Shown here piece by piece: positions 1,451 to 49,487 of a DNA stretch of 64,000 nt (its first letter is position 1; every line of letters begins with the position of its first letter). Position numbers and translations under genes: made by a program. The notes below the pieces were generated by a model that had not been told where the DNA came from, searched no databases, and worked only from the letters and a program-made list of their open reading frames with translations. Source of the stretch: Octopus sinensis (Eukaryota); assembly GCF_006345805.1 (NCBI RefSeq), contig NC_043001.1:66712001-66776000 (forward strand). The letters run 5' to 3'.

Positions 1451-4400
1451 AGTCTGCCAGAATGCTTTATTGCTCATCTAAAGTCAGTCTAGCTTAATCC
1501 CAAAGTCTTCCCATGATTTAACCTTGAATGTTTCTTCTGTCTCTGCTGCAACTTTTTATACCTCAGTGCACAGCAAGCACAAAGGAGGTACTTGTTTACA
1601 AGCCAAGCTTTGTTAGTCTCTTCCTTTGTTTGGATGGCATCTTTAATTTACTGCATTCATGAATAAGAGTTTTGAAAATAGTCTTCAATGGGGAGATGAA
1701 AAACACCTTTTCTTTAATGTCACTGAAGTACACCCACTAAACCTATCAAAAAAAAAAGTGTTATAGCATATTTCCTTTAAGACCCTCAAAGTCTCTATAA
1801 ATTGTACTTATTACAATGTTTGATCTCTCATGGCAACTCCACATGATAAAAACATTACCAAAACTACTTCACAAAGACCACTTACTCTTCAAGACCATAA
1901 AATACTTCAGTTCTTAGCAATTACTATTGGTGTACATTCACATACTGGTACTCAATTACAATGTAGAGAGTAGAGTATATTCACATGCTGATACTCATGT
2001 ATAATGTAGAGTGGAGTACTGCTAATATATCTGGTCAGAAACTGTTATTGTGATACAAAAACCTCCAGAATCACATCCTAAATGAGGTGACTTGGCTTAT
2101 AAAACAATGGCTTTAACACACAGATAGTCTGTTTCTGCTACAACGGCATCTACTTCTCCATCTAGATCTCTTTTGCACACAATGCATATCCGACATGCTT
2201 TTTTTTATTATGGAAAACTGGAAATGAACATCACTTATATGAATGACATTGATAGCTGTTTACAACCATCACCTAGTGTCAAGACAAGGACACAAACACA
2301 TTCATATGCACACATACACATATCCTGTGGGCTTCATTCAGTTTCGATCTTCAAGATCCTCTCACAAATCTTTAGTCAGCCCAGTTTTATAGTGGAAAAC
2401 ACTTGACCAGGGTGCTGTGCAGAGTGAATGAACCCAAAACCACATGGTTGAGAAGTAAGCTTCTCAACCATGCAACAAATGCATGTAAAATGATGATGGT
2501 GTCAACATTTTCTCCATTTATTATTTCTATTATCTTCCATGTGTTTTCTTTTGACTTGTAAGTTTTATAAAATGTAACTTTCAGCATAATTTCAATTCCC
2601 AATTAGGGTGCTTGTACACAGTTGGTAATTAAATTTGGAGAAATGCATAAATATCTCTGCATCAATTCCCCACAGTATTTTCACATCAAATACTGTCCAT
2701 TTTGTTGCTGTAGTTGTTTAACTTCATATCAACATTGATTGATCAAGATCAGTCCAGATGTAACTGCTTTGTCATTTTTTTACAATGTCATGAGTCTTGT
2801 ACTACATTATCCAATATGAATATCTTTAGGAAGAAGCCTTATTAATCAATAAAGTATTTGAAACTATATTTTTTCACATTACTAGTCCTGTTACTAATTT
2901 TTATTATTATTGCCATTAAACAATAACAACAATATCTACTTGAAACTAAAAGCTAGAAACAAAACTTATGTTATTGTTATGAAATCTGAAATAGTCAGTG
3001 GATCTCATATGAATTTATATATTTTATTTCGTTTGATTCAGATATCTATTTGTTACTATAGTGATTTATTATTTTTACATGTTACATAATATGTTTCTTT
3101 ATTACATGTTGTCTTTGCTGCTTGGCAAGTTTTTCAGTTTATCTCATGTTATTGGTGTATAGTTGCAGTCCTTTACAGTTCAAGTCCAAATCCTGCCATA
3201 TTTGGTTGCTAAAATGTAGAACAGACTTTTATATGTTTATGTCAGAGAGGGTTAATTGAAAACCCAGCTATTCTTAACATGAAATAAGTTTGTTTGAAGA
3301 ACCTATTTTATGGTGGATGGTAGTTGTTGAGGGGGTGGGGGAGTCAGTCAATCCTATGAGCTTCTGTTATAAATTTTGAGGAAAGAAGATTAAACAGGAA
3401 GTAGAGGAAGTGCTCTTTTACTCCTACATTTATGTACATACACACTTAAGGGGGCATAAATACATTCATATGTTTGTGTATGCATGAGTGTGTTTATGTG
3501 TGTACAAGTGTGTTTCTGTTTGTACGAGTGTGTACACACACACACACTCTTACATACATAAACACCCAAATATTGGCATCTATATACAGTAGAACATTTA
3601 AAAATTAATTATGTTTTGCTTATGTCGCTCAGCATTTAATTTCTAAGACTTTGATTCCTGACCAAAGCCAGCTTAGTTCCAAGAAGCTCTTTTGATATAT
3701 TTTATGGTTAACCTTCAGTCATTTGGTCTATTATTGCACACTTTGCTTCATTGCAGTCATATTTCCAAAGGGAAGACAACATATGAATAAAGATAAACAA
3801 ACAACTAAGATGAGTGGGTGGTTAGCATAGTTTTAATAGTCATATGGTTGCCATTGTTGAAGTTTACTGCTGTGCCATTTTTATTTTCATTACGTAGGTA
3901 TGTGTGTGTGTGTATTTCTTTACATACACTTTCTTTATTCTATGACAATCCAAAGTTTGTTGTGAGAAGACTTTACATTAGATGATACCCCATTAACATA
4001 GACATTTTGCTATGTTTTGGTTTGTATTTGAAATATTTACTTGTTGTTGTTATTCCACTCAGTCAGACCTATGGCTTATTTTAACTTTCTTCTTTACATC
4101 CCTCCCCTACCCATGATGCTATTTTCTGTCACCCATTACATTTTGAGAATTAAAAAACAAAGAAGATATGTTTATTCTTTTCAGCCTGGGGCCATATCTA
4201 AATCTCTTGTGACCATGACTCTCTTGGAGTCACTGGTAATGTTACTAGAAAAACATGCATGCGCACACACACACACATCTGATTATGTATGTGTAAGAGT
4301 ATGTGTGTGTTTTCATTTAAGAAGGAATTAGGGCAGAACTTTACAGTGGACAATAACATAAACCTGATTTGATAATGTGTGCATCTACAGATACAAACAC

Positions 4401-5556
4401 CCATAGACACATACAAGCACACACATATACACGCATACAGATACATGCAAACACACACATACAGACATTCATATACAGACACAAACACATATATAGCCAA
4501 CACTGTTAAACGAAGGCAGTGAATTGTTAGAATTGTTAAAAACATCATTGTATCCCTTACAGTTTTTATTTTGCTTCTTCATTCTGAGTCCAAATGGTCA
4601 GTTTGCCTTTCATTTTTTTTTTTTTTTTCAGGATCAATAAACTATCAATCTATTTCAGGGATAAGTTCCTCTTTCCCACTCCTCTCTCTTTTCTTTAATT
4701 AGAAGGCCCATCCCTTTATGGCCTGCTGATTTAGTTCAAGATTACATTAAAGAGACACATATCTGCAGAATCCTGAATCACTTAACACATAGCATTAGTT
4801 GAAATTCAGTTGATCACAAATAGTTTGAGTTTTGCGGAGGGGTTTTGTGTCACTTTCTAAGGCATCCTATCTGATAAGTCTTTTCCAAGAGTTTTTGTAA
4901 CTGTTGGTAAGTCTCGGAATATAATTCAATATCATTTTTTAATGTTTTTTTAAAGCTAAATATGAAGAAAGCATTGCTTGTGACTCTGTCAATGGACTCA
5001 ACAAAGGTGATGACAAATGGGAGAGAGGAGTCTTTAGTCTTACAGGGTACACGGTAACCCTTGTGATGTTAGTGCTATAATAAAATACTCTCAGTACATT
5101 CTTTAAAGTGGTTGATGTTTGGGGCAGTATCCAATCATAGAAATCATGTTGTAAATGCAATGTATGAGAAAGATGTGGTCCATGATCCATTCAAGACAAC
5201 AATAATAAGAAGAACTGACTCAAACCATGATGACCTCTGTCCAACCCGTGACAGCATGGAAAAATGGATGTAAAATGACAATACTAATGATCAATATGAT
5301 ATCGACATCATCATCATCATTATTTTAACACTTTGCAAGCTTTGAACAGAATTCATTGAGGCAGATTTTTTGCAGCCAGATGCCATTCTTGTCACCAACC
5401 CTCACCAAATAAGATAATATTTCCCTTTTGCCAGATATGTTCCCAGTCATTAGAAACAAAGGACACTGCTTGTACGAAGGGACATTTGTTGATAGCTATC
5501 ATGTAATGTCATGACAAGGAGACACTAAAACTGTCTGTCTGTCTCTCTCTCACGCA

Positions 5557-10022: not shown

Positions 10023-11394
10023 GGATCTTTTCTATTCTGAAGCCAGTTTTTTCAAATTTTTCCTACTGAACCAAACAATTTGAAACTTCGTATACTGGTA
10101 GAATGTGTCAAAAGTAAACTTAATTGTAAACCAGAATGAAAACGGAATTGTAACTTCTAAGTTTAACGTTGTTTAATAATTAGAATTTTAACCAATGATA
10201 TTCCGTCATTCGGCTTTATTTTATTTACTCCGTCTCGACCACCAATTTCGTGACGTATTAAACATCTTAAATGTAAACAAGTTAGTACTTGCTTTCGTTT
10301 TATTTTTTTTACATAAGTAATGAGAGCGAAAGAGACTAAGAGGAAGCGATTTTATGACGAGGGAAGTTTGCCTTTGAAGTTACCGTCTAGGGGAAGCATT
10401 GATGTACATGTGTGTGTGTGTGTGTGTGTGATTGATGGGGTGTGGGAGACAGTATGTTGTGTAAGTGAAGTGCTTCTGTTAGTGTGTGTGAAGAGACAGA
10501 GAGAGTAATGTGTGAAAGAGAGAGATAACTGAAATTTTTTACTCGGTGTATGTGTATATGTATGTCTGCATGTATGTGTGTGTGTATGTATGTGTAAGTA
10601 TGTGTGTGTGTGTGTGTGTATGTATGTGTGTGTGTGTATGTATGTATGGCCGATTCATCGTAATTACGATGAATCGGCCATAGATACATACACACACACA
10701 CATACATGCAGACATACATATACACATACACCGAGTAAAAAATTTCAGTTATCTCTCTCTTTCACACATTACTCTCTCTGTCTCTTCACACACACTAACA
10801 GAAGCACTTCACTTACACAACATACTGTCTCCCACACCCCATCAAACACACACACACACACACATGTACATCAATGCTTCCCCTAGACGGTAACTTCAAA
10901 GACAAACTTCCCTCGTCATAAAATCGCTTCCTCTTAGTCTCTTTCGCTCTCATTACTTATGTAAAAAAATAAAAGTTTTTTACGGAAATCGACGGAAAAC
11001 TTGTGCTACGACAAGCGAAACTTCGCCGAAATTTAATATTAAAAAAGCAAAGAGCTGGCAGAAACGTTAGCACGCCGGGCGAAATGCGTAGCCGTATTTC
11101 GTCTGCCGTTACGTTCTGTGTTTGTTTACAGTTTTCCGAACGTTAGTACGTCACAAAAGCGCTTTCTACGTCACACTAATAGAATGCAGTCAAGTTTTAC
11201 ACATGAAAACAAACAATCTGATTGGTTAAAATTCGCAGTTTTAATCTACGATTAAAGTCATAAAATAGATTTTTCTCAAATAAACTAGTTCCAACCTGTG
11301 TCTTGTTTTGCTAGACTCTATCAGCATACGAAGTTTCAGATTATTTAGTTAAGTAGAAAGATCTGTGGTCCTGGCTTCAGAATTGAAAAGATCC
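10023..11394. mobile_element. Non-autonomous foldback DNA transposon with an 8-bp TSD (hAT- or Merlin-like), inserted into a SINE
   Basis: TIR GGATCTTTTCTATTCTGAAGCCAG (10023) vs CTGGCTTCAGAATTGAAAAGATCC (ends 11394). TSD GTAGAATC/GCAGAATC. Further diverged inverted motifs inside. The SINE head 'gagctggtagaatc' resumes after the element. Confidence 0.85.
10298..10974. repeat. Long spacer-less palindrome (arms ~310-365 bp), centre 10663/10664
   Basis: Centre GGCCGATTCATCGTAA|TTACGATGAATCGGCC; arms differ only by a few substitutions and microsatellite lengths. Confidence 0.95.
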
Positions 11395-17670: not shown

Positions 17671-20600
17671 CATCATCATCATCATCATTGTTTAACGTCC
17701 GTTTTCCATGCTAGCATGAGTTGGATGGTTTGACTGGGGTTTGGGAAGTCAGGAGGCTGCACCAGGCTCCAGTCTGATCTGGTAGTGTTTCTACAGCTTG
17801 ATGCCATTCCTAATGCCAACCACTCTGTGAGTGTAGTGGGTGCTTTTTACATGCCATCGGCATGGGTATCACAACTACAATTTCCATTTGATTTTTATTT
17901 TGATGTTGATGTACTTGACTCATTGGGTCCCCTCCAGCACAGCAGGTCACCCTACGATCAAAGCACAGCAGGTTGCTCTACCATCCAAAGTACTTTTGAA
18001 TGGGCTGAGGCTGGTTATGCGAAACTGGTGTAAGATACAGCTGTGAACTCACTTTATTTGTCGGGTCTTCGCAGTCACAGCATATCTCCAAAGGTCTCGG
18101 TCTTTCATCATCTCATCTCATGTCTTCCTGGGTCTACCTCTACCCCGGATTCCTTCAACTGTTTGGGAGTTGCACTTCATCACACTTCATCCATCCATAT
18201 ACATGACCATACCAGTGCAACGTCTCTCTTGCATGCCACATCTGATGCTTCATATATCCAACACTTCTCTCAGGGCGCTTACAACTCTGTCGTGTATGCA
18301 CACTGACATTACACATCCAGCAGATCATGCTAGCTTCATTTCTTTCAAGCCTATGCATGTCCCCTGCAGTCACAGCCCATGTTTCACTGCCGTGAAGCTT
18401 GGCAGTTCGCACACATGCGTCGTACAATCTACCTTTCACTCTGAGCGAGAGACCCTTTGTCATCAGTAGGAGTAGAAGCTTTCTAAACTTTGCCCAGGCT
18501 ATTCTTATTCTAGTGGTAACACTCTCTGAGCATCCACCCCCACCTACTTCTACCTGGAATTCTTCATTATACTCATTGCCAATCCTAACCTTACTAATGG
18601 CCTCTCTGTATAGGCCTGTACAGCCCTTATTAACCATTCGTCAATCTCCAGTTTCTGCATCGATTCCCAGATAAGGGATTGGTGGACCCTGTTAAAAGCT
18701 TTCTCCAAGTCCACAAAAGCTAAGTATAGGGGTTTATCTTTAGCTAAGTATTTCTCCTGCAGTTGTTGAACCAGGAATATGGCATCAGTGGTGCTTCTAC
18801 CTGGCACAAAACCGAACTGCATCTCATCTAAGCAGACTCTCTCCCTAATGAGATGGGCTATCACCCTCTCTGTGATCTTCATCACCTGATCCAGCAGTTT
18901 GTTACCCCTGTAGTTATTTCTATCTAGAGCATCACCTTTACCCTTGTAGCAGTTGACTATGGTACTGCTATACCAGTCATTGGGTATGACTCTATCGTGA
19001 ACTACCTGGTTTACAATGCGGGTGACTAGGCCATAGCCCACGCCACCAGATGTTTTAAGCATCTCAGCAGTGATTCCTGATGGGCTGAGGGCTTTTCTTG
19101 GCTTCATATCCTTAATTGCTTTATCTACCAGGGAGCTGTCTATTTGGATAGCTGGTCCCTCTAGTGGGTCAACATTTGGCAGGCTCTCCACCTCCCATTC
19201 ATTCTCTTCGTTCAGCAGTCTTTCATAATGGCTCCTCCAAGCCTCTTTCTTTTCAGAATCATTAAAAGCAACTGCACCATCATCCATGCAGACACATTTC
19301 TATCCTGTAACGTCACAATTTTCTCTCACACGCTGTCTTGCAATCCGAAATACTTCAGTTCTTTGGTCCTCATGTTGCTGGACATTGCCAAACATCTTCT
19401 TTTCTTATGTATACTTGCCTCCCAGCCTCCCTTTTGGCTACCTGATACAGTTCCCTGCTACCCCCACCCTTCCAGGCCTGTTTCTTTGCTCTGATGGCTT
19501 TGTCTACTGTACTATTCCACCACCATGTAACTCAAGGTCTGGAAGGGACTTTGCACCATCCGCAGACTTTGTCTGTGGCATTCAGCAAACTGTCCTGTAG
19601 GAATTTCCAGCTACCTTCTATGTCTGATGTCTGTAGCTACTCCTCCCTCTCATCAAATTTTTTGATGAAGATGTCCCCAAATCTCTGACCATGTGAAGGG
19701 TTCTTTAGCTTCCAAATCCTTTTTATTTGGATTGGTCTGCTTCTTGGTATCCTTCTGGCCTTGAGCCTAAAGTCACTAATGACTAGCCTATGCTGGGGGG
19801 TACATTCTTTACCCGGGAGGGTCTCTGCATTTAAGAGCAACCCTGTGTCCCGCTGTCTGGTGAGGATGAAATCAATCTGGATAGCAGAGTCCCCTGATTG
19901 ATAGGTTATCAGGTGGCTATCTGGCTTCCTGAAATTAGTGTTGTAGATTAAAAGGTTACATGCATCACAGAAATCCAGTAGCCTAGTTCCCTCATTGTTC
20001 CGGGCATCAATGCCATGGCTCCCGTGTACCCCAGTGAAGATACCAGATTCCTGCCCCACATGCCCATTAAAATCTCCAGTCACAAAAATGAGATCATTGC
20101 CACATGTCTTTGAGGTAGCCTGTAAAAGGGTTTCATAAAAGTGGTCCTTTTGATCATTTGGTAGCCCTGCATGTGGGGCATAGCTGGAGATAATTGTAGC
20201 TGTGCTGTTCTGCAGGACTAGCCTGAGCTTAAGCATTCTATTGCATACCCTAACAACCTCTATGACTTTATCCACCCATTTCTCCGCAAGGAGTATGCCT
20301 AAACCTCCTACACCATCCATGTTACCTTGCCAGAAAACTTTATACCTATGTGCCTTGCCTGCGAGGACCCTAGCTGAAGCTCTTCTCCATTTTACCTCTT
20401 CTATGCAGCATACATCAGCCCGTCTCCTTTCAAGTATCTCTACAATCTCACTAGACCTACCTTTCAGTGTGCCAACATTGACACTGCCAACTCTGAAAAC
20501 TGGGAAGGGAATGTGGGGTGAGGTTTGGAAAGGAGAGATGTTATTCAGCGCCTGAAAAGATGAGTGAGGTTGTCGTGGTGTTCATTTTTTAGGCATGCTT

Positions 20601-28373: not shown

Positions 28374-28506
28374 GTATATACTTTGATACTTTGATAGGTT
28401 TCGGCCATTATTGGCCCAGGCCATGTCTAACTTAATAGCACCATATATATATATATATATATCACATAATCACATACCTATCTATCTGTCTGTTCATATA
28501 TATATG

Positions 28507-28541
<35 letters not shown>

Positions 28542-28631
28542 GTATGTATGTATATATATGTATATATATATATGTATGTATATATGTATATATATGTATA
28601 TGTATATATGTATGTATATATGTATATATAT

Positions 28632-29137
28632 GATTTTGATTTTGATTTTTCCAGTTTCAGCTCATGAGCTGTGGCCATGCTGGGGCACCGCCATTTGGTT
28701 TGCTACATGATTTTACCTCACAAATGCTTTTTAGCAACTGCCATTTGGTGCATGAGAGAGTTCGATGCAGCTGCCCTCATCTGCACCTCCTGCCGTGAAG
28801 TTGGTTCATCCGGGACACCTGACAGGAAGAGATCCAGTCCTACTTTAAAGACATCCGCATCTACACCATGCAGGTCCCTCAGGTTCTTCGGGAGGATATT
28901 GAAGAGCTGTGGGCCTCTGAAGCCCAGGCTATCACAGTATCTTGTCCTACATATTGATGGCAAATTTGGAGTCCTTGGTACCACGCAGTGGCGCCCGTTT
29001 CTGGCATTTGTGTGACTCTCGATGCCAAAGTTTGGGACAAGTCATTCCAGGATCTTCCAGATATATATTATGGCATATCTTTCTCGCCTACGCTCCAAGG
29101 AATAGAGTTTTAATCTCTTGAGTCTTTCCCAGTAGCT
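28632..29137 (-). mobile_element. 5'-truncated 3' end (~500 bp) of the CR1-group LINE
   Basis: Closely similar to 29871-30380; (AAAATC)n tail. Confidence 0.92.
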
Positions 29138-29215
29138 TATATATATATGTATATATATATGTATATATATGTATATATATATATATGTATATATATGTAT
29201 ATACGTATATGTATG

Positions 29216-29252
<37 letters not shown>

Positions 29253-29331
29253 GTATGTATATATATATGTATGTATGTATATATATATGTATATATGTAT
29301 ATATGTATATATATATGTATATATATATGTA

Positions 29332-29365
<34 letters not shown>

Positions 29366-29381
29366 TATGTATATATATATG

Positions 29382-29413
<32 letters not shown>

Positions 29414-29870
29414 TATGTATATATGTATGTATATGTATATATGTATGTATATGTATATATGTATGTATATAAAAATATATATGTATGTATTTATATGTAT
29501 ATATATATGTATATATGTATGTATTTATATATATGTATGTGTATGTGTATATATATATATATGTATGTGTATGTATATATATATGTATGTATATATATAT
29601 GTATATATATGTGTATGTGTATGTATATATATATGTATGTGTATGTATATATATATATATATATGTATGTGTATGTATATATATATGTATGTGTATGTAT
29701 ATATATATGTATGTGTATGTATATATATATGTATGTGTATGTATATATATATATGTATGTATATATATATATGTATGTGTACGTATATATATATACGTAT
29801 GTATATATATATATATATGTATGTGTATGTATATATGTATGTGTATGTATATATATATATGTATGTGTAT

Positions 29871-32800
29871 GATTTTGATTTTGATTTTGATTTTTCTAGT
29901 TTCAGCTAATGAGCTGTGGCCATGCTGGGGCACCGCCATTTGGTTTGCTACACGATTTTACCTCACGGATGCTTTTTAGCAAACGCCATCTGATGCATGA
30001 GAGAGTTCGATGCAGCTGCCCTCATCTGCACCTCCTGCCGTGAAGTTGGTTCATCCGGGACACCTGACAGGAAGAGATCCAGTCCTACTTTAAAGACATC
30101 CACATCTACACCATGCAGGTCCCTCAGGTTCTTCGGGAGGATATTGAAGAGCTGTTGGCCTCTGAAGCCCAGGCTATCACAATTTCTTGTCCTACATCTT
30201 GATGGCAAATTTGGAGTCCTTGGTACTACGCAGTGGCGTCCGGTTCTGGCATTTGTGTGACTCTCGATGCCAAAGTCTGGGACAAGTCCTTCCAGGATCT
30301 TCCAGATATATATTATGGCATATCTTTCTCGCCTACGCTCCAGGGAATAGAGCTTTAATCTCTTGAGTCTTTCTCAGTAGCTCATATGCTGCACAGAGGC
30401 TATCTTCTTCGTGTAGCTTCGTTGGATCGCCTCAAGTTCTGTGATCAACTTGACACTGGATTGTGACCATAGCTGAGAGCAATAGTCAAAGTGGCTTAGG
30501 ACAAGTGTCTTCCAGAGGACCATCATGGTTTCTTGTTCTCTTGTTCTAAAGGTTCTAAGAATCCATCCAGCCACCCGTCTACATTTCATTGTCAGTTTAG
30601 CAACATGTACATGAAAGGTCGCGTCATCACTCATGTGAATACCCAGGTCACGCACTGATTGTGCCTCTGGGATTGCAATCCCTCCGGGTCCAGTGTATTC
30701 ATTGGGTATTGCATTTAGTTTTGCATGCTGATAGTATAAAGCTTGAAACTTTTCAGCATTGAACTGCATGCTATTCTTTTCAGCCCACTTGTATATTTCG
30801 TCTAGCTCACATTGCAGGTGCTTAGTGTCTTCAGGGTTCTGTATTGCCTGTGAAACTTTTGTATCATCTGCATAACTTGTGATCGTGGCTCTCTGCGTGG
30901 CTGAGGGCATGTCTGAGAGGGCCATTATGAACAGTAGTGGTCCCAAAACAGTGCCCTGCGGAACACCACTCACTATTTGCATGTTAATGGAAGTGGCTGC
31001 TACCACCTGACTTCTATTTTCCAACTATGCCAAGATCACGCAGTTTGTGACATATCATTCCATGATCGACTTTATCAAAGGCCTTTGCAAAGTCGAGATA
31101 TATGACTTCCACATTTGAGTGGTTGAGCAGTTGTTTCAGCACCCAGTCATAGTGTTGTAGGAGCTGAGTTAAGCAGCTTCTTCCTGGTCGGAAACCATGT
31201 TGGGTGTCAGGTATCAAGTCATTTTCTTCAAGGAAGGTGATTAGTTTCCTTCTGACTATTCGTTCCATGACCTTGCTGATGTGTGAGGTCAGAGAGATAG
31301 GTCTGTAGTTCTTGGCCTCCGCTCTGCTACCTCCTTTATGAATTTGGGCATATTTTACCTTCCTTCAGTTTTCTTGGAAGTTTGCCAGCTGCAAGGAAGC
31401 TCTGAAAGAGGAACTGCAGTGGTCTTGTTAGGACTCTCTTACATACTTTTAGGAGGATTGCCAGGAATCCATCGGGGCCAATAGCTGAGTCTGTTTTCAT
31501 TTCATCTATAGCCTTTATTGCATCGTCTTCCTTTATATCGATGTAATTTATCGTCGCCACCTCTGATTTATATCTGCAGTGGTAAAGAAGTCAGTTGGAT
31601 TGCTGATTTGGAAATGCCCAAGGGGTGGAGTGAAAACACTCTTGAATTGCTCATTCAGTATTTCACGTACCCTCATTGGTTTTCCTGTGAGTGTGCCATC
31701 CTTTTCAAGGAGTGGCCCTATCCTACAGTGCACCGTAGCTGTTTCTTTGGCATACCTGTAGAAAGCTCTGGGGTTAGTTTTTATGTTGTCTATAGCCCAG
31801 GCTTCTTTGTCTGCTCTTTCCTTTTCATGGGAGAGTCTCAGACATTTTTCAATTTCCAACAGTTTTATTTTCAGGCGGGACTTTTCACTGCTTTCAATTT
31901 GTTTTTTTAGGCGATTTGAAATTTTTGTACGCCGTCTCATTAAAATTTTCCTCTCTCTGGAGATTTTGTTCTTGTGTACAGTGGCCTTTCTCTCTGGGAC
32001 ACATTTGTAGCATATGGCTTGCATTACAGACATGAATTGTTGAAGTTTCATGCATTACAGACATGAATTGTTGAAGTTTCATGTCGATGTCCGGCGAGGA
32101 GAGACATTCAAGCCAGTTTTGTTTGAGGATCTCTTTCTCAATTTGTTTCCAGTTTGCCTTATTGAAGTTCAAGCTGGAAAGATTCTGAGAGCTTCTTGTA
32201 GGCTGCATGTCCATGTTTTTCTTTGGCCCGTACATAGTCAGCTCTACCATGTTGTGATCCGAGAGTAGTGTCGGTGTCACTTTCACATTATGGATGAGAT
32301 CCATATTATTTGTGAAGCAGAGGTCCAGTGTGTTACCTGCCCTGGTTGGTTGGAGTATTACTTGCTCCATGTTGATGAGGTTCAGGAGGGACTTCACCTG
32401 TCCCTGTTCACCTCGTGTCATTCCTGGGAGAGAAAGGCCCTCGGGCCATCTGACATTGGGTAGGTTGAAGTCTCCCATGAGAAGTACACTTATGTGCTGT
32501 TCTAGTGTGACTAGAACTTCTATTTTTATAAGGCAGTCTTCAAACTTGCCCATATGGCTTGGGGCATCTGGAGGGCGATATGTAGCACACACAACTACAC
32601 CAAGTTGCCTTACATGTACAATTAGTGTGTCACACCCCGAGTTTGAGTATGACAAAAGGACCTGGGGTGTGAGGTCCTCACGGATGTACATAGCAACTCC
32701 TCCATGACTCCTTTCTTTTCTGTCGGTCCGTAGTACAACATACTGTGGTATGTGTAATTCCGCATCCGCTATGTCCGGTTTCAGGTGTGTTTCCGTAAGT

Positions 32801-33536
32801 GCTATGCATAAGGCTTGATTGCATGCAACAAAGTCTCTCAAGAACGGGACTTTTGTCCTGTTACTGTGTGTTAGTAGTCCTCTGATGTTCAGTAGGAGCA
32901 TTGAGGTGAGGTGTATACTGTTGCCGGTGGTGTCCACCTTGGGTCTATTTGCTGTGGTGGTCTTGTGAACTGTGGGTAGTCCCATCTGCGAGCTTGCGTT
33001 TGATGGAGCCAGGTTAGCTGCTGTAAATCTTTTGTGCCATGCACAAAAAAGATTCTTGCTCAGCAGCTGCCCTTTCAACAACACGTTGGCGGTTTGTGGC
33101 ACGCACCACATCTGCGTACAACCGTTTTGGGGCAGGTGGTGCGTGGTCCATCCCTTTTCCTTTCGGTGGTTGGTTTCTGCGGTAGGGTCCTGGATGTGCA
33201 AAACGGCAACCTGCACCTTCCTCTCCATGCCGGCAGGCACCTCTCAGGTAGAACCTACATACCCGTGTGCGCTGCTTGTTTCCATCCTTTTTGGCATATG
33301 GATAGTTAGGTTTGCTTCTATCCTTGGCTGTTTCGTTTTTTGGTTTTGCCTGAGTTTTAGTTTTAGTTTTTCCTCCTTTTTTGGTTCTTTCATCTCCATG
33401 TCCATGGCTTTTGGTGCAGGTAGGAGCACCCGCACTTGGGTTTACCTCCCGGGCAGGTTTCTCACTGGAGTTTTCTTCCTGGGCGTCTACCAGGTGGGGG
33501 TGACCTTTTTCATCAGCGCCCGCGTCTCCATCCTGT
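29871..33536 (-). mobile_element. CR1-group LINE, 5'-truncated in ORF1. ORF1 has a CCCH zinc finger; ORF2 (APE + RT) is frameshifted
   Basis: ORF1 'CRFYLRGACRHGEEGAGCRFAH'. APE 'LNIRGL','LTETHL','YRPP','GDFN','LDLCF','SDH'. RT 'YLDFAKAFDKVDH','SGVPQGTVLGPLLF','YADDT'. (AAAATC)n tail. 31-bp tandem duplication at 32021-32082. Confidence 0.95.
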
Positions 33537-33600
33537 ATGTATGTATATATATATATGTATGTGTATGTATATATATATATGTATGTGTATGTATATATAT

Positions 33601-33748
33601 AACGGTAAGCTTTATGAAAATAGACAAAAGACGAAGGCAGGTTTACGGAAATAAACAAAAGACGAAGGCAGGTGGAATACAAACAAACAATTGTATTAGT
33701 ATGGTGCTCAGGAAATATAAATGAAACAAGTCTTTAACGTTTCGAGCC

Positions 33749-33750
<2 letters not shown>
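33601..33750 (-). mobile_element. Penelope-type terminal (pLTR) fragment starting in the 3' half of a hammerhead-like motif
   Basis: Minus strand TAGGCTC-GAAA-CGT-T-AAAGAC..., flanked by TA repeats; a decayed relative lies at 44700-44830 (+). Confidence 0.55.
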
Positions 33751-33822
<72 letters not shown>

Positions 33823-33948
33823 GTATGTATATATATATATATGTATGTGTATGTATATATATATATGTATGTGTATGTATATATATATATGTATGTGTAT
33901 GTATATATATATATGTATGTGTATGTATATATATATATGTATGTGTAT

Positions 33949-33980
<32 letters not shown>

Positions 33981-34089
33981 ATATATATATATGTATGTGT
34001 ATGTGTATATATATATATATGTATGTGTATGTGTATATATATACATATGTATGCGTATGTATATATATATATATATATGTATGCGTATG

Positions 34090-34122
<33 letters not shown>

Positions 34123-34315
34123 ATATATATGTATGTGTATATATATACATATGTATGTGTATATATATACATATGTATGTGTATGTATATATATATATAT
34201 ATGTATATATGTGTATGTATATATGTATATATATATATATGTATGTATATATGTGTATGTATATATGTATATATATATATGTATGTATATATGTATGTAT
34301 GTATGTATATATATA

Positions 34316-34352
<37 letters not shown>
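33751..34352. repeat. (TA)n/(TATG)n compound microsatellite
   Basis: Direct inspection. Confidence 0.95.
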
Positions 34353-34354
<2 letters not shown>

Positions 34355-35630
34355 TAAGAAAGTTTGTTTGGTAAAGCACGTGGGTGAATATATAAGAAAA
34401 TAGTAAAGTGTGAAAAAACGACAGAAGGCTTAAATGTTAAAAAATATATATATTTGTGTCAAAATGTCTGGAGAATATTGGAAAAATTTTTTTCCTTTCC
34501 TTAAAATGACATAATTTTAAAATTTTTAAAGAAATTACCGGTTTCGCGTGTAGCTTTTCAAATTTCTTGTGACGTTATGTTTATATTGTATGGAATTATC
34601 GTTGTTTTTATTTCCAGGAGATTTCTAAATAAGGGGAGGTAGTGAGTGATTTTTTCCGGTGTAGGGGAGATAATCGCTTAAAAAATTTTTTTTCCCATTT
34701 CCTTGTTAATTTCTCTGTGTCAGTATGTTCGGATGGTTGAGTCTGGGTTTGTACTTTTCAATGAAGAATGTTTCCTTGTTCAGTCTCATTTGTGTTGATG
34801 ATCCGAAAGCACATTGGTAAAATGGGAAGATTAAAAATTGTGGCAGTAGTTGCTTTGCGCATTTCTCGATGTGCTCACTAAAAGGTATCATTCTATATTC
34901 TGGGAATGCAATCTGTTGTCGATGCAGTGTGCATCTGCGCCTGAGTGATAGTCCCGTGGAACCCACGTAGTCTTGGTGGCAGCCCGAGCATTTAATAACA
35001 TAAATTATGTTTTCAGAGGCACAAGTAAAGTTAGATTTGATCTTAAATTTCTGTCCCTCTTTAAAGAAGAATTCTGATCCTTCCAATAGGTTAGGACATG
35101 TTGCACAGTTCGATCTACCACATTTTTTAACTTTGCATCCGTAATTTTAGAAGACAATTTTGCCTTTGTGAGAATCTTTTTAAGTGATTTAGGCTGTTTG
35201 TAGCTTTTAATGATTTGGTGTATGTTTAGAATTTCCTTTAATTTTGGGGTTTTATGAAGTATTGGTAAATTCTGGGTGATGATGGTGAAGGCTTCTTTGT
35301 TTCTGGGGTTGTATGTAGATATGTAAGGTAGTATTTTCGGGGAAGGTGTGTTGTTGTGTTGAACTTTTCTTAAAGTTTCTATGTTGATTTCTGTTGCACG
35401 TCTGATCCCATCCTCTATGAGTTGAGCTGGGTAATGTCTGTCAATCAGGGTGTTTTTGAGTTCTTGCAGTCTAAAGTTCCTGGTATTTTGTTCTGACACT
35501 ATTGTGCATATCCTTCTTGCAAGGTTGAAGGGGATGTTTGTTTTAGTGTGTCTTGGGTGGCATGAATTAAAAAGAAGGTATTGTTTGGCGTCTGTGGCTT
35601 TGTAAAAAATGTCTGTTTCTATTTTAAGGT
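34353..35630 (-). mobile_element. 5'-truncated Penelope-like element (RT thumb, linker, GIY-YIG endonuclease, 3'UTR)
   Basis: 'IETDIFYKATDAKQYLLFNSCHPRHTKTNIPFNLARRICTIVSE' (PLE thumb), then 'FTCASENIIYVIKCSGCHQDYVGSTG..LRRRCTLHR...KETFFI...P.LN' (GIY-YIG); one frameshift near 35115. Confidence 0.93.
34529..34568 (-). ncRNA. Minimal type I hammerhead-like motif (variant core) in the Penelope 3' terminus
   Basis: AAGAAAU-UUGAAAA-GC(UACAC)GC-GAA-ACCGGU-A-AUUUCUU: 7-bp stem I and palindromic stem III; core deviates from CUGANGA. Confidence 0.6.
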
Positions 35631-36511
35631 TAATTTTTCATACTTTTCCTCCTAATCATATTCAAAGACACTATCCCTTAGTGAGGAGTACACTTAACTT
35701 CCTTTATCTTTTACTGAGGTAATTTTTTATCATCAACAATTCAGAGTCTGTCTGTTTTTAATTTAGATAAAGAAAAAATTTTAACTAATTTGAAATATAA
35801 CCAACATAGACATACACAAATATCAGCATCATCATCATCAGTTAGCATCAGTTTTCCATGCTGGCATGGGTTAGATGGTAAGCTAGGGAGCAGTGCCAGG
35901 TCCAGTCTGTTTTGGCTTCATTCCTACAGCTGGATGCCCTCCCTAATGCCACTCAATCCATGGAGCACAAGTGCCTGTAATGTGTCACTGGCATGGGTGC
36001 CTTTCACATGTCATTGGCACCTCACATGTGTCACTAGCATGGGTGCCTCGCACATGTCACTAGCATGAGAGCTTCACGTTTCACCAGCACAGGTGCCTTT
36101 CATGTTTCACCAGCACTGGCCATGACTATAATTCTACATATTTATACATCCACAACCTTGTCACCCCCACCAAAAAAGCACTACAACCCTAGATTTACTA
36201 ATACTAATTAGGTTCTGACTGAAAGTAGTTGTACTTTAAATTAAACTTTTTTATTTGCAAATCCCGAATCTCTGATAATCAGAACATAAATATCTAAGGT
36301 CCACTGAGAAGAAAAAAGTTTACTCTGGAAAAAAAAGAAGAGGGTCTAATCTAATGGAAGAGTTTTGATCACATTAATGGATTAGTGTTATGGTTGAATT
36401 AAACTAATAGACAACACAACATCCATTACTAAGAATCAGTCATTCAATTAATTATTCCTACACAGACAAGCACTTTCTTCATTCTGCCTCTTTCAACACT
36501 ACTACAACACA

Positions 36512-36523
<12 letters not shown>
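35631..36523. repeat. Left arm of an ~890-bp near-identical inverted duplication
   Basis: Reverse complement of ~37300-38187; the same 92-aa ORF appears on both strands. Confidence 0.95.
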
Positions 36524-36544
<21 letters not shown>

Positions 36545-37299
36545 AGATCTAAATATTGTCTTGCAGACTTACCTCTCTTTACCTATGCATTTAGAGGAAA
36601 CTCCCTCCTCCCCAATCTGTTTACTGCCTTGTTGGTATGTCTTGTTTATGTTGTTACTGAGAACAGCTGAAACTAGCAATTGTGGTTGGAAATGGTAGTG
36701 GTGGTGGTGGCAGCAGCAGCAGCATCGTTGTTGTCATCAGTGAAGGTGATGGGTGGTAGTTGATGATATTGTGGGCGGGTTGGTGGTGTGTCAGGATGGA
36801 GTATTGTGATGGCTGTAGGTGGTAGCTGTGAAGAATCTGTGGGTAGAAATGGTGTGGTTGGTAAGGGTGGTGGTGCTGTGTCATGGGGATGTATTTGTGG
36901 GTGATGGTGGTGGTGGTGTGTAGTGATGGAGAGAGTGAACATTATCTGTTTAGATGACTCAAGCAGTTTCCCAGCAAAAAAAAAGCAGGAAAAAGAAGAC
37001 TTCAAAGTTTTACTATTATTGTATGTAAACAGCAACAGTTAAAATGAGAGAGGAGCCTCTACATGTTTAACTGACCTGCTAGAAATAACAGGTAAATATC
37101 ACTCCCATCAACTGTGTGGGTGAAAGCATTGCTGTGAGGTTAAAAGGTTTGTATTGCAACCATATGCTTTGGAGATCAATCCCACTGCATGGTACTTTGG
37201 GCAAGGTTGACCAGAGAGCCTTGTGAGCGAAATTTGGTGGACAGAAACGCAGAGAGAGAGAGAGAGAGTGAGTGAGAGAGAGAGAGTGAGTGAGAGAGA

Positions 37300-38187
37300 G
37301 AGAGAGAGTGTGTTGTAGTAGTGTTGAAAGAGGCAGAATGAAGAAAGTGCTTGTCTGTGTAGGAATAATTAATTGAATGACTGATTCTTAGTAATGGATG
37401 TTGTGTTGTCTATTAGTTTAATTCAACCATAACACTAATCCATTAATGTGATCAAAACTCTTCCATTAGATTAGACCCTCTTCTTTTTTTTCCAGAGTAA
37501 ACTTTTTCTTCTCAGTGGACCTTAGATATTTATGTTCTGATTATCAGAGATTCGGGATTGCAAATAAAAAAGTTTAATTTAAAGTACAACTACTTTCAGT
37601 CAGAACCTAATTAGTATTAGTAAATCTAGGGTTGTAGTGCTTTTTTGGTGGGGGTGACAAGGTTGTGGATGTATAAATATGTAGAATTATAGTCATGGCC
37701 AGTGCTGGTGAAACATGAAAGGCACCTGTGCTGGTGAAACGTGAAGCTCTCATGCTAGTGACATGTGCGAGGCACCCATGCTAGTGACACATGTGAGGTG
37801 CCAATGACATGTGAAAGGCACCCATGCCAGTGACACATTACAGGCACTTGTGCTCCATGGATTGAGTGGCATTAGGGAGGGCATCCAGCTGTAGGAATGA
37901 AGCCAAAACAGACTGGACCTGGCACTGCTCCCTAGCTTACCATCTAACCCATGCCAGCATGGAAAACTGATGCTAACTGATGATGATGATGCTGATATTT
38001 GTGTATGTCTATGTTGGTTATATTTCAAATTAGTTAAAATTTTTTCTTTATCTAAATTAAAAACAGACAGACTCTGAATTGTTGATGATAAAAAATTACC
38101 TCAGTAAAAGATAAAGGAAGTTAAGTGTACTCCTCACTAAGGGATAGTGTCTTTGAATATGATTAGGAGGAAAAGTATGAAAAATTA
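37300..38187. repeat. Right arm of the ~890-bp inverted duplication
   Basis: Reverse complement of 35631-36523; one 1-bp indel seen (~36260 vs ~37558). Confidence 0.95.
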
Positions 38188-38576
38188 TATTTATTGCTCT
38201 TAATTTCAAACTCCCACATCATTCCAACTCAATACACCTTACCCCCACAGACACATGGTGAAATCTGCAAGGAAATTGGTGATTGTTTGTGTTGGCACCA
38301 GTTAGTCGACAGAAGAGTTTATATTATTCCCTCCTCAAAGTGATTGAACTTAAGCTCTTCTCTTATCTTTTGGGATCTTGTCCTTGGACTGGGAGTGAGT
38401 GTCAGAAAGAAAGAAAGAAAGAGTTAAGATTCAGAATCCAAGGAATCCTGTACAGGTCAGTAACAAGTTATTGAATGGAAATAGTAATAAAAATAAATAT
38501 GTAATTGCTGTGAGAAAAGAAATTGACAAATGTTCTGAATGTAGAGGAGAGAGAATAGAAAAGACAAACACATCTG

Positions 38577-38722
38577 TATTACTCTTTTACTCTTTTACTT
38601 GTCTCAGTCATTTGACTGCGGCCATGCTGGAGCACCGCCTTTAGTCAAGCAACTCGACCCCGGGACTTATTCTTTTTGTAAGCCCAGTACTTATTCTATC
38701 GGTCTCTTTTTGCCGAACCGCT
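38577..38722 (-). mobile_element. 3' part of SINE family B
   Basis: Reverse complement of ~26415-26555. Confidence 0.85.
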
Positions 38723-42115: not shown

Positions 42116-42453
42116 CGCAAACTTACAAGAAAACTGAAGGAAGGTAAAATATACCCTATTCATAAAGGAGGTAGCAGACGGCGGCCAAGAACTACAGACC
42201 TATCTCTCTGACCTCACACATCAGCAAGGTCATGGAACGAATAGTCAGAAGGAAACTAATCACCTTCCTTGAAGAAAATGACTTGCTGCCTGACACCCAA
42301 CATGGTTTCCGACCAGGAAGAAGCTGCCTAACTCAGCTCCTACAACTCTATGACTGGGTGCTGAAACGACTGCTCAACCACTCAAATGTGGAAGTGATAT
42401 ATCTCGACTTTGCAAAGGTCTGTGATAAAGTCGATCATGGAATGATATGTCAC
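42116..42453 (+). mobile_element. Internal RT fragment of the same CR1-group family
   Basis: 'MERIVRRKLITFLEENDL..QHGFRPGRSC..YLDFAK' nearly identical to 31014-31268; preceded by (TA)n. Confidence 0.92.
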
Positions 42454-43907: not shown

Positions 43908-44101
43908 GTAGGTCCCGGGTTGAGTCGGGGTTAACCACAGTAAATAAGGTACTCAATACATAGCAGAGTAAAGTAATTTATTTTATAGAAGGAGCTTCTA
44001 CAGGACTAGAACTGTTTCATTCAGATGAAATCTTCAGGAAGCTTCCTGAAGATTTCATCTGAATGAAACAGTTCTAGTCCTGTAGAAGCTCCTTCTATAA
44101 A
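43908..44101. mobile_element. Penelope-type terminus in inverted arrangement, containing a perfect 120-bp palindrome (43982-44101)
   Basis: Centre GGAAG|CTTCC; the longer minus-strand arm continues through AATAAA to a TA run. Confidence 0.75.
44040..44090 (+). ncRNA. Type I hammerhead ribozyme (mirror copy on the minus strand at 43993-44043)
   Basis: AGCUUC-CUGAAGA-UUUCAUCUGAAU-GAA-ACAG(UUCUAGUC)CUGU-A-GAAGCU. Intact core, 6-bp stem I, stem III, GUA cleavage triplet; stem II is short. Confidence 0.8.
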
Positions 44102-45010: not shown

Positions 45011-45196
45011 CTAGTAAGCACATAAATGTGAAACAAGATGGAAAAATGAATACTCAAATACCAGAAGTAGAGTAATATGCTTTATTTAAAAGCAGCAGAA
45101 ATATAACAAAAGCTGTTACTCAGAGTTTCGTCGAATGGGAACGTGAAACTCTGAGTAACAGCTTTTGTTATATTTCTGCTGCTTTTAAATAAAGTA

Positions 45197-45244
<48 letters not shown>

Positions 45245-45288
45245 TACTTTATTTAAAAGCAGCAGAAATATAACAAAAGCTGTTACTC

Positions 45289-45291
<3 letters not shown>
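45011..45291. mobile_element. Penelope-type terminus fragments in triple inverted arrangement with the 3' half of a hammerhead
   Basis: ...GGGAACGT-GAA-ACTCTGAGT-A-ACAGC...AATAAAG on +; inverted copies at 45081-45129 and 45248-45291. Confidence 0.7.
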
Positions 45292-49380: not shown

Positions 49381-49487
49381 ATACAAAGAAATATGTGATA
49401 TATTTTTCTTACCAGTGATTTACAAGCAAAATGAATTCAATTTCTTCAAAAACTACTGTAAAACAACATATTGGACCAAATAAAATA
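49381..49487 (+). other. Candidate host-gene exon, possibly containing the start codon (MNSISSKTTVKQHIGPNKI...)
   Basis: Acceptor tttccttcttttccAG; donor GTAAGT at 49488; caaaATG at 49431 open for 19 codons to a phase-0 donor; lies in non-repeat DNA. Confidence 0.45.

What the first reader, a model, noticed from the sequence alone, without database searches (positions are those of the whole stretch)
34353..38187. Penelope 5' truncation is fused to an ~890-bp inverted copy of nearby downstream DNA
Seen: PLE coding sequence stops at ~35630 and is immediately followed by the reverse complement of 37300-38187. This copy ends at a (CT)n/(TA)n run at 36523, and (TA)n also borders the other PLE end. 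The PLE frame (..KINLKIETDIF) runs into the junction TAATTTTT, suggesting microhomology. Inference: the nascent cDNA switched template to local genomic DNA, so the insertion created a long inverted repeat with an ~780-bp spacer that would form a long dsRNA stem if transcribed.
Basis: partly seen in the sequence, partly recalled or inferred. Interest (0 to 1): 0.7.

Follow-up and report, generated by a model that had tools for sequence, protein, structure and literature searches.

The report
Penelope insertion capturing its host intron
A young octopus jumping gene (Penelope type) sits fused to an 893-base mirror copy of the DNA just beside it, likely because its copying enzyme jumped from its own RNA onto the host gene's unspliced transcript; such accidents are known for human L1 elements, but I did not find one described for Penelope elements.

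Summary
A 1,286-bp 3' fragment of a young, TA-targeting Penelope-like element (PLE; 34353-35638, minus strand) is fused through an 8-nt microhomology to an 893-bp inverted copy of 37297-38187. The copy has no substitutions and two 1-bp gaps, and ends at (CT)6|(AT)10.

Of 174 other insertions of this family, 138 have a second, inverted PLE arm running to the far (TA)n. Only 2 carry a local inverted copy (8 and 56 bp). This locus is a rare variant in which host sequence takes the second arm's place.

A PHLDB1-like gene on the + strand has its ATG exon, with a splice acceptor, 11 kb downstream, and the region is CpG-depleted, so the site is likely in a 5'-UTR intron. The captured piece is host-sense and co-oriented with the PLE, as a reverse-transcriptase jump onto nascent pre-mRNA would give (about 0.45). 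DNA-templated routes (0.40 together) and an assembly error (0.10) remain open. No read or contig confirmed either junction.

The event class is known for L1; I did not find it reported for PLEs. Moderate interest.

The parts
33749..34352 (.). TA/TATG microsatellite array at the PLE 3' end (target; inferred primer of first-strand synthesis)
   Evidence: other copies shown also start on (TA)n
34353..35638 (-). 5'-truncated 3' fragment (1,286 bp) of a roughly 3,983-bp Penelope-like element; 5 substitutions and 9 gap columns against a full-length copy
34353..34387 (-). 35-nt PLE 'tail' between the two fixed end points (family positions 1 and 36)
   Evidence: inverted second arms end at position 36 in 124 of 138
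34706..35637 (-). Remnant ORF (RT thumb, CxxxxCxxC linker, GIY-YIG-like endonuclease) split over two frames
   Evidence: same protein in intact 793-837-aa frames of sibling copies
35631..35638 (+). 8-nt microhomology TAATTTTT shared by the PLE and the reverse complement of 38180-38187
   Evidence: chance 0.00019
35631..36523 (-). Derived inverted copy of 37297-38187 (host-sense when read on the minus strand, co-oriented with the PLE)
   Evidence: orientation
36524..36544 (.). (AT)10A, far half of the target microsatellite; joined to (CT)6 with 1 nt shared
36524..37296 (.). 773-bp spacer (original flank)
   Evidence: covered by contigs of all 4 runs laid
37251..37308 (+). (GA)n tract in which the copied segment ends
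37297..38187 (+). Source arm (ancestral position, inferred)
49381..49487 (+). ATG-bearing exon of a PHLDB1-like host gene, preceded by a polypyrimidine/AG acceptor and followed by GTAAGT; implies an upstream 5'-UTR exon

Best explanation
This is one recent Penelope-type insertion into a TA microsatellite in which the element's reverse transcriptase, after copying 1,286 nt of its own RNA, likely jumped at an 8-nt match onto the unspliced transcript of the host gene that likely spans the site, and copied about 890 nt of it. The steps are: (1) the endonuclease breaks the (TA)n and the left 3' end primes cDNA at the tail site (inferred from family anatomy); (2) the cDNA end TAATTTTT pairs with AAAAAUUA at 38180-38187 of + strand pre-mRNA (microhomology shown, RNA template inferred); (3) synthesis runs back toward the break and stops in the (GA)n tract (end point shown, cause unknown); (4) the new end is joined to the far (TA)n with 1 nt of homology, as in single-arm siblings (junction shown, pathway inferred). 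The captured host piece fills the place of the family's usual inverted second arm. The product is a 5'-truncated fragment that cannot encode the enzyme, plus an inverted repeat that would fold into a duplex of about 890 bp in the host pre-mRNA.
For: 8-nt microhomology, P = 0.00019. Zero substitutions between arms and a young PLE arm, 0.35% from its nearest long sibling, fit one event. A + strand PHLDB1-like gene begins coding at 49431 in an exon with a splice acceptor. CpG o/e is 0.27 around the insertion, against a median of 0.82 for 174 sibling loci, 11 of which are under 0.3; octopus methylation marks bodies of expressed genes (PMC9476566, passages). The CpG peak at 44 kb, between the site and the exon, is a repeat family. 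The capture is co-oriented with the element, the orientation given for RT template switching (PMC13174262, passages). 890 nt exceeds the DNA-templated L1 cases I read (52-220 bp in PMC10191854; typically under 250 bp and within 15 bp of the site in bioRxiv 2024.08.27.596794), and PMC10191854 reports one L1 co-insertion of nearby precursor mRNA. Same-orientation jumps occur within this family's insertions, and 12 of 36 siblings without a second arm join straight to (TA)n with little homology.
Against: No transcription start or 5'-UTR exon was found, so transcription across the site is inferred. The copy crosses no splice junction and has no edited bases, so nothing in it proves an RNA template. 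Both junctions can be read as either the priming or the closing step. The family's usual second arm appears to be primed from the far DNA end (44 of 118 second arms are longer than the first by over 50 nt), which favours a far-end start. The two other local copies (L145, L201) lie in CpG-normal DNA (0.82, 0.93) and look DNA-templated. Orientation alone has a 50% chance match. No listed contig bridges either junction.
Confidence: 0.45

Rival explanations
1. Fold-back by the far DNA end. The right-hand (TA)n 3' end, instead of priming on PLE RNA at position 36, snapped back onto its own resected strand at the (CT)n tract, copied 890 nt away from the break, and then annealed to the PLE cDNA through the 8-nt match (snap-back synthesis-dependent end joining).
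For: It uses the strand that normal 5'-to-3' resection exposes (established knowledge; snap-back model in PMC5728401, passages). It mirrors the family's architecture: 138 of 174 insertions run TA-arm-junction-inverted arm-TA, with overlaps of 8 nt or more at 7 of 88 insert-free central junctions (BLAST overlaps, rough). L145 looks like a minimal hairpin version.
Against: Only 1 nt of homology at the supposed priming site, unless the target already carried (CT)n, which 34 of 3,054 TA arrays do. It needs over 1.6 kb of resection and 890 nt of synthesis, well beyond the L1 fold-backs I read. It does not explain the likely gene-body location or the sense orientation. L145 could be a pre-existing TA-centred palindrome (similar ones).
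Confidence: 0.23
2. One reading: the first-strand cDNA end invaded + strand genomic DNA at 38180-38187 (a D-loop, or the strand displaced in a transcription R-loop) and was extended toward the break.
For: Same microhomology and polarity as the best explanation. The + strand is G-rich over 36545-38600 (509 G, 301 C), which would suit an R-loop (inference). cDNA pairing with nearby DNA is the model cited for L1 templated insertions.
Against: The + strand of the right end is the 5'-terminated strand, normally resected or still paired. Reported cases are short and lie next to the site.
Confidence: 0.17
3. Assembly or library artefact: the inverted arm is a misjoin.
For: The arms differ only by homopolymer gaps. 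No listed contig bridges either junction, and the main contigs of a run under the same sample code (X2) differ from the window at 36077, 36192 and 36987 and run on past the arm end.
Against: The junctions look like family-typical products (8-nt microhomology; join to TA). Fold-back read chimeras are perfect palindromes and do not return to the forward strand after a spacer (recalled). The tool states that contigs drop rare variants and show presence, not absence. X2 may show the other haplotype.
Confidence: 0.1
4. Two separate events: an inverted duplication formed first and the PLE later inserted, with a deletion, at its edge.
For: TA-associated young inverted repeats are frequent in this genome.
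Against: Most of those match other surveyed loci, i.e. are repeat families. The duplicate ends exactly at an 8-nt match with the PLE, and both parts are nearly undiverged.
Confidence: 0.05

Closest known systems
L1 insertions with foldback inverted duplication of the 5' flank, and one with co-inserted nearby precursor mRNA (Nam et al. 2023, PMC10191854; section 11 and passages read, figures not seen)
   Same: 5'-truncated retroelement fused to an inverted copy of sequence from its 5' flank; the pre-mRNA case matches my preferred mechanism.
   Different: Human somatic L1; foldbacks are 52-220 bp (4 cases). Here a PLE, 893 bp, source starting 773 bp away, TA target.
L1 templated insertions (bioRxiv 10.1101/2024.08.27.596794, passages; PMC11702581, section 7 and passages)
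   Same: Local genomic sequence copied into the insertion junction; inversions and inverted duplications at the reciprocal end.
   Different: Typically under 250 bp and within 15 bp of the site; ascribed to DNA templates; different element class.
C-terminal EN+ Penelope-like elements with a CX2-5CxxC linker (Neptune/Nematis type; PMC8557442, passages) and the PAc mechanism (PMC11167929, first two of four parts read)
   Same: RT followed by GIY-YIG-like endonuclease, 35-nt tail, two fixed RT start sites, inverted 5'-truncated second copy, AT-rich targets.
   Different: At this locus the inverted partner is host sequence, not element. Clade not fixed by a tree; no hammerhead found.
Host-sequence capture by Adineta vaga Penelope elements (PMC3846280, passages)
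   Same: PLEs carry captured host DNA spacers and an intron-containing host gene; microhomology-mediated 5' joins; template jumps proposed.
   Different: Those captures lie between pLTRs or moved in trans; an inverted copy of the insertion's own flank is not among the passages I saw.

Membership tests
EN+ Penelope-like element | Single ORF with RT | tested here: met
   Siblings have open frames of 793-837 aa; Pfam RVT_1 30.3 and 29.7 bits, cut-off 29.6
EN+ Penelope-like element | C-terminal GIY-YIG endonuclease with CCHH motif | tested here: inconclusive
   Pfam GIY-YIG hit at residues 694-741 is below cut-off (14 bits, E 0.064); motif IIYVIKCSGCHQDYVG with downstream His residues is visible; reading it as the PLE motif is from recall
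EN+ Penelope-like element | 30-40-nt tail at one end | tested here: met
   Ends at positions 1 and 36; 124 of 138 second arms end at 36
EN+ Penelope-like element | Partial tandems and inverted 5'-truncated copies | tested here: met
   Tandems in L115, L182, L189; 138 of 174 two-arm insertions
EN+ Penelope-like element | Hammerhead ribozyme in the pLTR | tested here: not met
   No hammerhead among 56 Rfam matches on 3 loci; a minimal-core pattern scan printed nothing. Degenerate forms could be missed.
Neptune/Nematis clades | CX2-5CxxC linker before the endonuclease | tested here: met
   KKCGRSNCATC in window and siblings; feature defined in PMC8557442
Neptune/Nematis clades | RT phylogenetic placement | not tested
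   No reference set fetched; no tree built
Retrotransposition-coupled templated insertion | Local copy joined directly to the element's 5' end, of the same age as the insertion | tested here: met
Retrotransposition-coupled templated insertion | Empty allele lacks both element and duplication | tested here: inconclusive
   Contigs of 4 runs show the source end unbranched; the empty junction itself was not read
RT template switch onto cellular RNA | Captured RNA in the same orientation as the element | tested here: met
   Host + strand sense is co-oriented with PLE sense (rule); conditional on the site being transcribed
RT template switch onto cellular RNA | RNA hallmarks in the capture (splicing, editing) or proof of a transcript | tested here: inconclusive
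   Capture crosses no exon junction found and equals its source; no RNA reads were laid

The most novel reading that the evidence does not exclude
Penelope reverse transcriptase jumps in cis onto the nascent transcript of the gene it is invading, so insertions antisense to active genes can write long intronic inverted repeats of host sequence, ready-made dsRNA in an animal with heavy RNA editing.
Probability: 0.4. Interest if true: 0.58.

Novelty: new variant of a known kind. Interest (0 to 1): 0.38.

Why it matters
PLE insertion steps after priming are not yet shown experimentally (PMC11167929). Rare aberrant products like this one constrain how the second end is resolved. If the template was host pre-mRNA, it shows PLE RT can switch onto a cellular RNA at the target, a route to host-sequence capture that has been seen in rotifer PLEs but not explained. 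It also gives a sharp genome-wide prediction: long captures should be sense-strand and in transcribed loci. As a single, likely neutral and rare event (no capture over 100 bp in 174 siblings), its direct biological weight is small.

Tried and rejected
Read validation. Four runs of contigs were laid on 35300-37240; none of the listed pieces bridges either junction, which proves nothing with contigs. One X2 contig runs 169 letters left of 36554; I laid four runs on 33480-33760 to place those letters and failed, as that stretch is a very high-copy repeat. Depth ratios were too noisy to use.

Further candidate captures. L167 looked like a flank duplication, but the duplicated piece is another repeat family. 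L164 is low-complexity and ambiguous. Most other young inverted repeats in 1.42 Mb of non-PLE flank match other surveyed loci; L190, L191 and L199 matched none and were not resolved, but none is joined to a PLE 5' junction. Longer linkers between arms match the element itself or are T-runs, not the flanks.

Host gene. Pfam on 300 of 339 short window frames gave only sub-cut-off noise and missed the 19-aa ATG exon. The gene was found from flanking stretches (60 of 142 frames scanned). The Atlas held neither exon. The PDB gave no match for the PLE protein.

A compound (CT)(AT) target as a discriminator was rejected, since it would help either direction.

Literature searches for a PLE flank duplication listed nothing that describes one. 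The library lacks most subscription papers, and I did not open supplements; figures S9-S10 of PMC11702581 and Extended Data Fig. 9g of PMC10191854 may hold closer L1 analogues.

Full report
Observation. The arms are 35631-36523 and 37297-38187, 893 columns with no substitution and two single-base gaps in A-runs. The spacer is 773 bp and begins with (AT)10A. Contigs of 4 public runs show no indel against the left arm at those two sites (table 4), so the gaps are most simply consensus errors in the right arm and the arms are effectively identical (inference). Other copies of the element match the window up to 35638 and then go on as element sequence, which makes TAATTTTT an exact 8-nt microhomology; random joins reach this at 0.00019. 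I did not see those letters, but the shared pattern fits the right arm being the ancestral source.

The element. The genome (G000, 2.72 Gb) is an octopus, judged by the host-gene matches. The family is young and abundant: 3,144 first-look candidates, with most scored hits 98-100% identical, and 354 exact tail-on-TA matches. The unit is about 3,983 bp. Siblings keep open frames of up to 837 aa with RT, a CxxxxCxxC linker and a GIY-YIG-like C-terminus, i.e. Neptune/Nematis-like by PMC8557442 (passages); no tree was built and no hammerhead was found. The window copy is a 5'-truncated end that cannot encode the enzyme.

Survey. I fetched 180 ten-kb regions: the first 100 of 354 matches, 67 of the 100 listed, and 13 of 55. 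Six were dropped as second views or tandem duplicates (L066, L095, L099, L114, L135, L175), leaving 174. Each region holds 2.5 kb on the 3' side and 7.5 kb, including the insertion, on the 5' side, so more distant sources are missed. In 138 of 174 the tailed arm is followed by an inverted PLE arm that ends at a (TA)n (138 of 138), at position 36 in 124. This agrees with the two RT start sites and both-strand extension shown for PAc (PMC11167929). Arms of one insertion are about three times closer to each other than to other insertions (0.005-0.007 against 0.018-0.019 substitutions per site, 99 insertions with enough overlap). In 44 of 118 simple cases the second arm is the longer by over 50 nt, so it is not a copy of the first. 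Of the 36 others, 12 join straight to (TA)n, one ends in an assembly gap, and two carry an inverted local copy between PLE and TA: L145 (8 bp, right flank, hairpin-like) and L201 (56 bp with one mismatch, left flank; best scored match elsewhere 85%). None of 174 has a local copy over 100 bp. The window locus is thus a rare variant in which host sequence occupies the second arm's slot.

Host context. Exons of a PHLDB1-like gene lie on the + strand: the ATG exon at 49381-49487, then exons over about 260 kb downstream. The ATG exon has a polypyrimidine/AG acceptor, so an upstream non-coding exon should exist. Unmasked DNA from 20 kb before the window to 20 kb after it has CpG o/e 0.20 overall; around the insertion it is 0.27, against a median of 0.82 for siblings, with 11 of 174 under 0.3. 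Octopus methylation sits on bodies of expressed genes (PMC9476566). The CpG peak at 44 kb is a repeat; the one at 53 kb lies beyond the ATG exon. The site is therefore likely in a 5'-UTR intron; the start site was not found.

Mechanism. Two directions give this product. If the first-strand cDNA led, its template had + polarity: host pre-mRNA or + strand DNA. If the far end led, it folded back on its own resected minus strand. The junctions cannot separate these, since each may be the priming or the closing step. I began by favouring fold-back, because of strand availability and the family's far-end priming. The host gene changed that. An RNA of the needed polarity is likely made at the site; the capture is co-oriented with the element, as RT switching predicts (PMC13174262); 890 nt suits a processive RT and exceeds the DNA-templated L1 cases I read; the far junction resembles the 12 direct TA joins; and an L1 precedent exists. 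Against it, transcription is inferred, the capture has no RNA hallmark, and the two short sibling captures lie in CpG-normal DNA. My odds are pre-mRNA switch 0.45, far-end fold-back 0.23, cDNA onto DNA 0.17, artefact 0.10, two events 0.05.

Validation gap. No listed contig bridges either junction. The main contigs of run X2, filed under the same sample code, differ from the window at three sites and pass the arm end unbroken. That fits a heterozygous or polymorphic insertion, and it also fits an assembly error; contigs show presence only.

dsRNA. If transcribed, the arms would form a duplex of about 890 bp with a 773-nt loop. This was not tested. It is not rare in kind: 27 of 118 simple two-arm siblings make inverted repeats at least as long. 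What differs here is that the duplex is host sequence.

Novelty. Inverted flank duplication and local capture at retrotransposon 5' ends are described for L1 (PMC10191854, PMC11702581, bioRxiv 2024.08.27.596794), and host capture is described for rotifer PLEs (PMC3846280). My searches listed no PLE case of this form; PMC9977147 passages did not describe one, and PMC5625713 was seen only as a listing. Verdict: a real feature of the assembly, a new variant of a known kind, interest 0.38.

Noticed in passing
window 49381-49487 (+); L219:7099-7221; L220:5783-5965: First coding exons of a PHLDB1-like gene; the whole window is CpG-depleted like a methylated gene body.
   Followed up: yes
survey loci, e.g. 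L104, L134, L155, L186, L210 (ends near family position 220-222): In 25 of 118 simple two-arm insertions both arms end within 10 nt of the same position (shuffled mean 2.5, maximum 9), several at a palindromic 4-mer; it suggests a shared RNA end, a stall site or self-priming.
   Followed up: partly
L201:2326-2382 and 2959-3014; L145 (oriented positions 2758-2785): Two short inverted local copies at PLE 5' junctions: 56 bp from the 3'-side flank and an 8-bp hairpin around (AT)6.
   Followed up: yes
L045, L049, L056, L089, L124, L125, L128, L168, L179, L189, L197, L216: A subfamily with a fixed internal direct duplication (family positions 339-387) near the 3' end.
   Followed up: no
window 28400-33535 (-): A LINE with a CCCH zinc-finger ORF1, endonuclease and RT, interrupted by TA arrays; a 339-bp piece recurs inverted at 42117-42453 at 96%.
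   Followed up: no
window 33602-33748: 147-bp piece of a very high-copy TA-flanked repeat, present in 26 surveyed loci.
   Followed up: partly
window 10298-10974: Young palindromic MITE-like element, arms 97% alike, 40 scored genomic matches at 97-100%.
   Followed up: partly
window 18000-20600 (-): Decayed LINE with endonuclease and RT domains.
   Followed up: no
window 43982-44101 and 45075-45291: Short perfect palindromic repeats beside TA runs, members of repeat families seen in other loci.
   Followed up: no
L167 (oriented 2400-2504 and 4602-4705), L059, L063: This PLE family nested inside inverted-repeat insertions of other TA-associated repeat families.
   Followed up: partly
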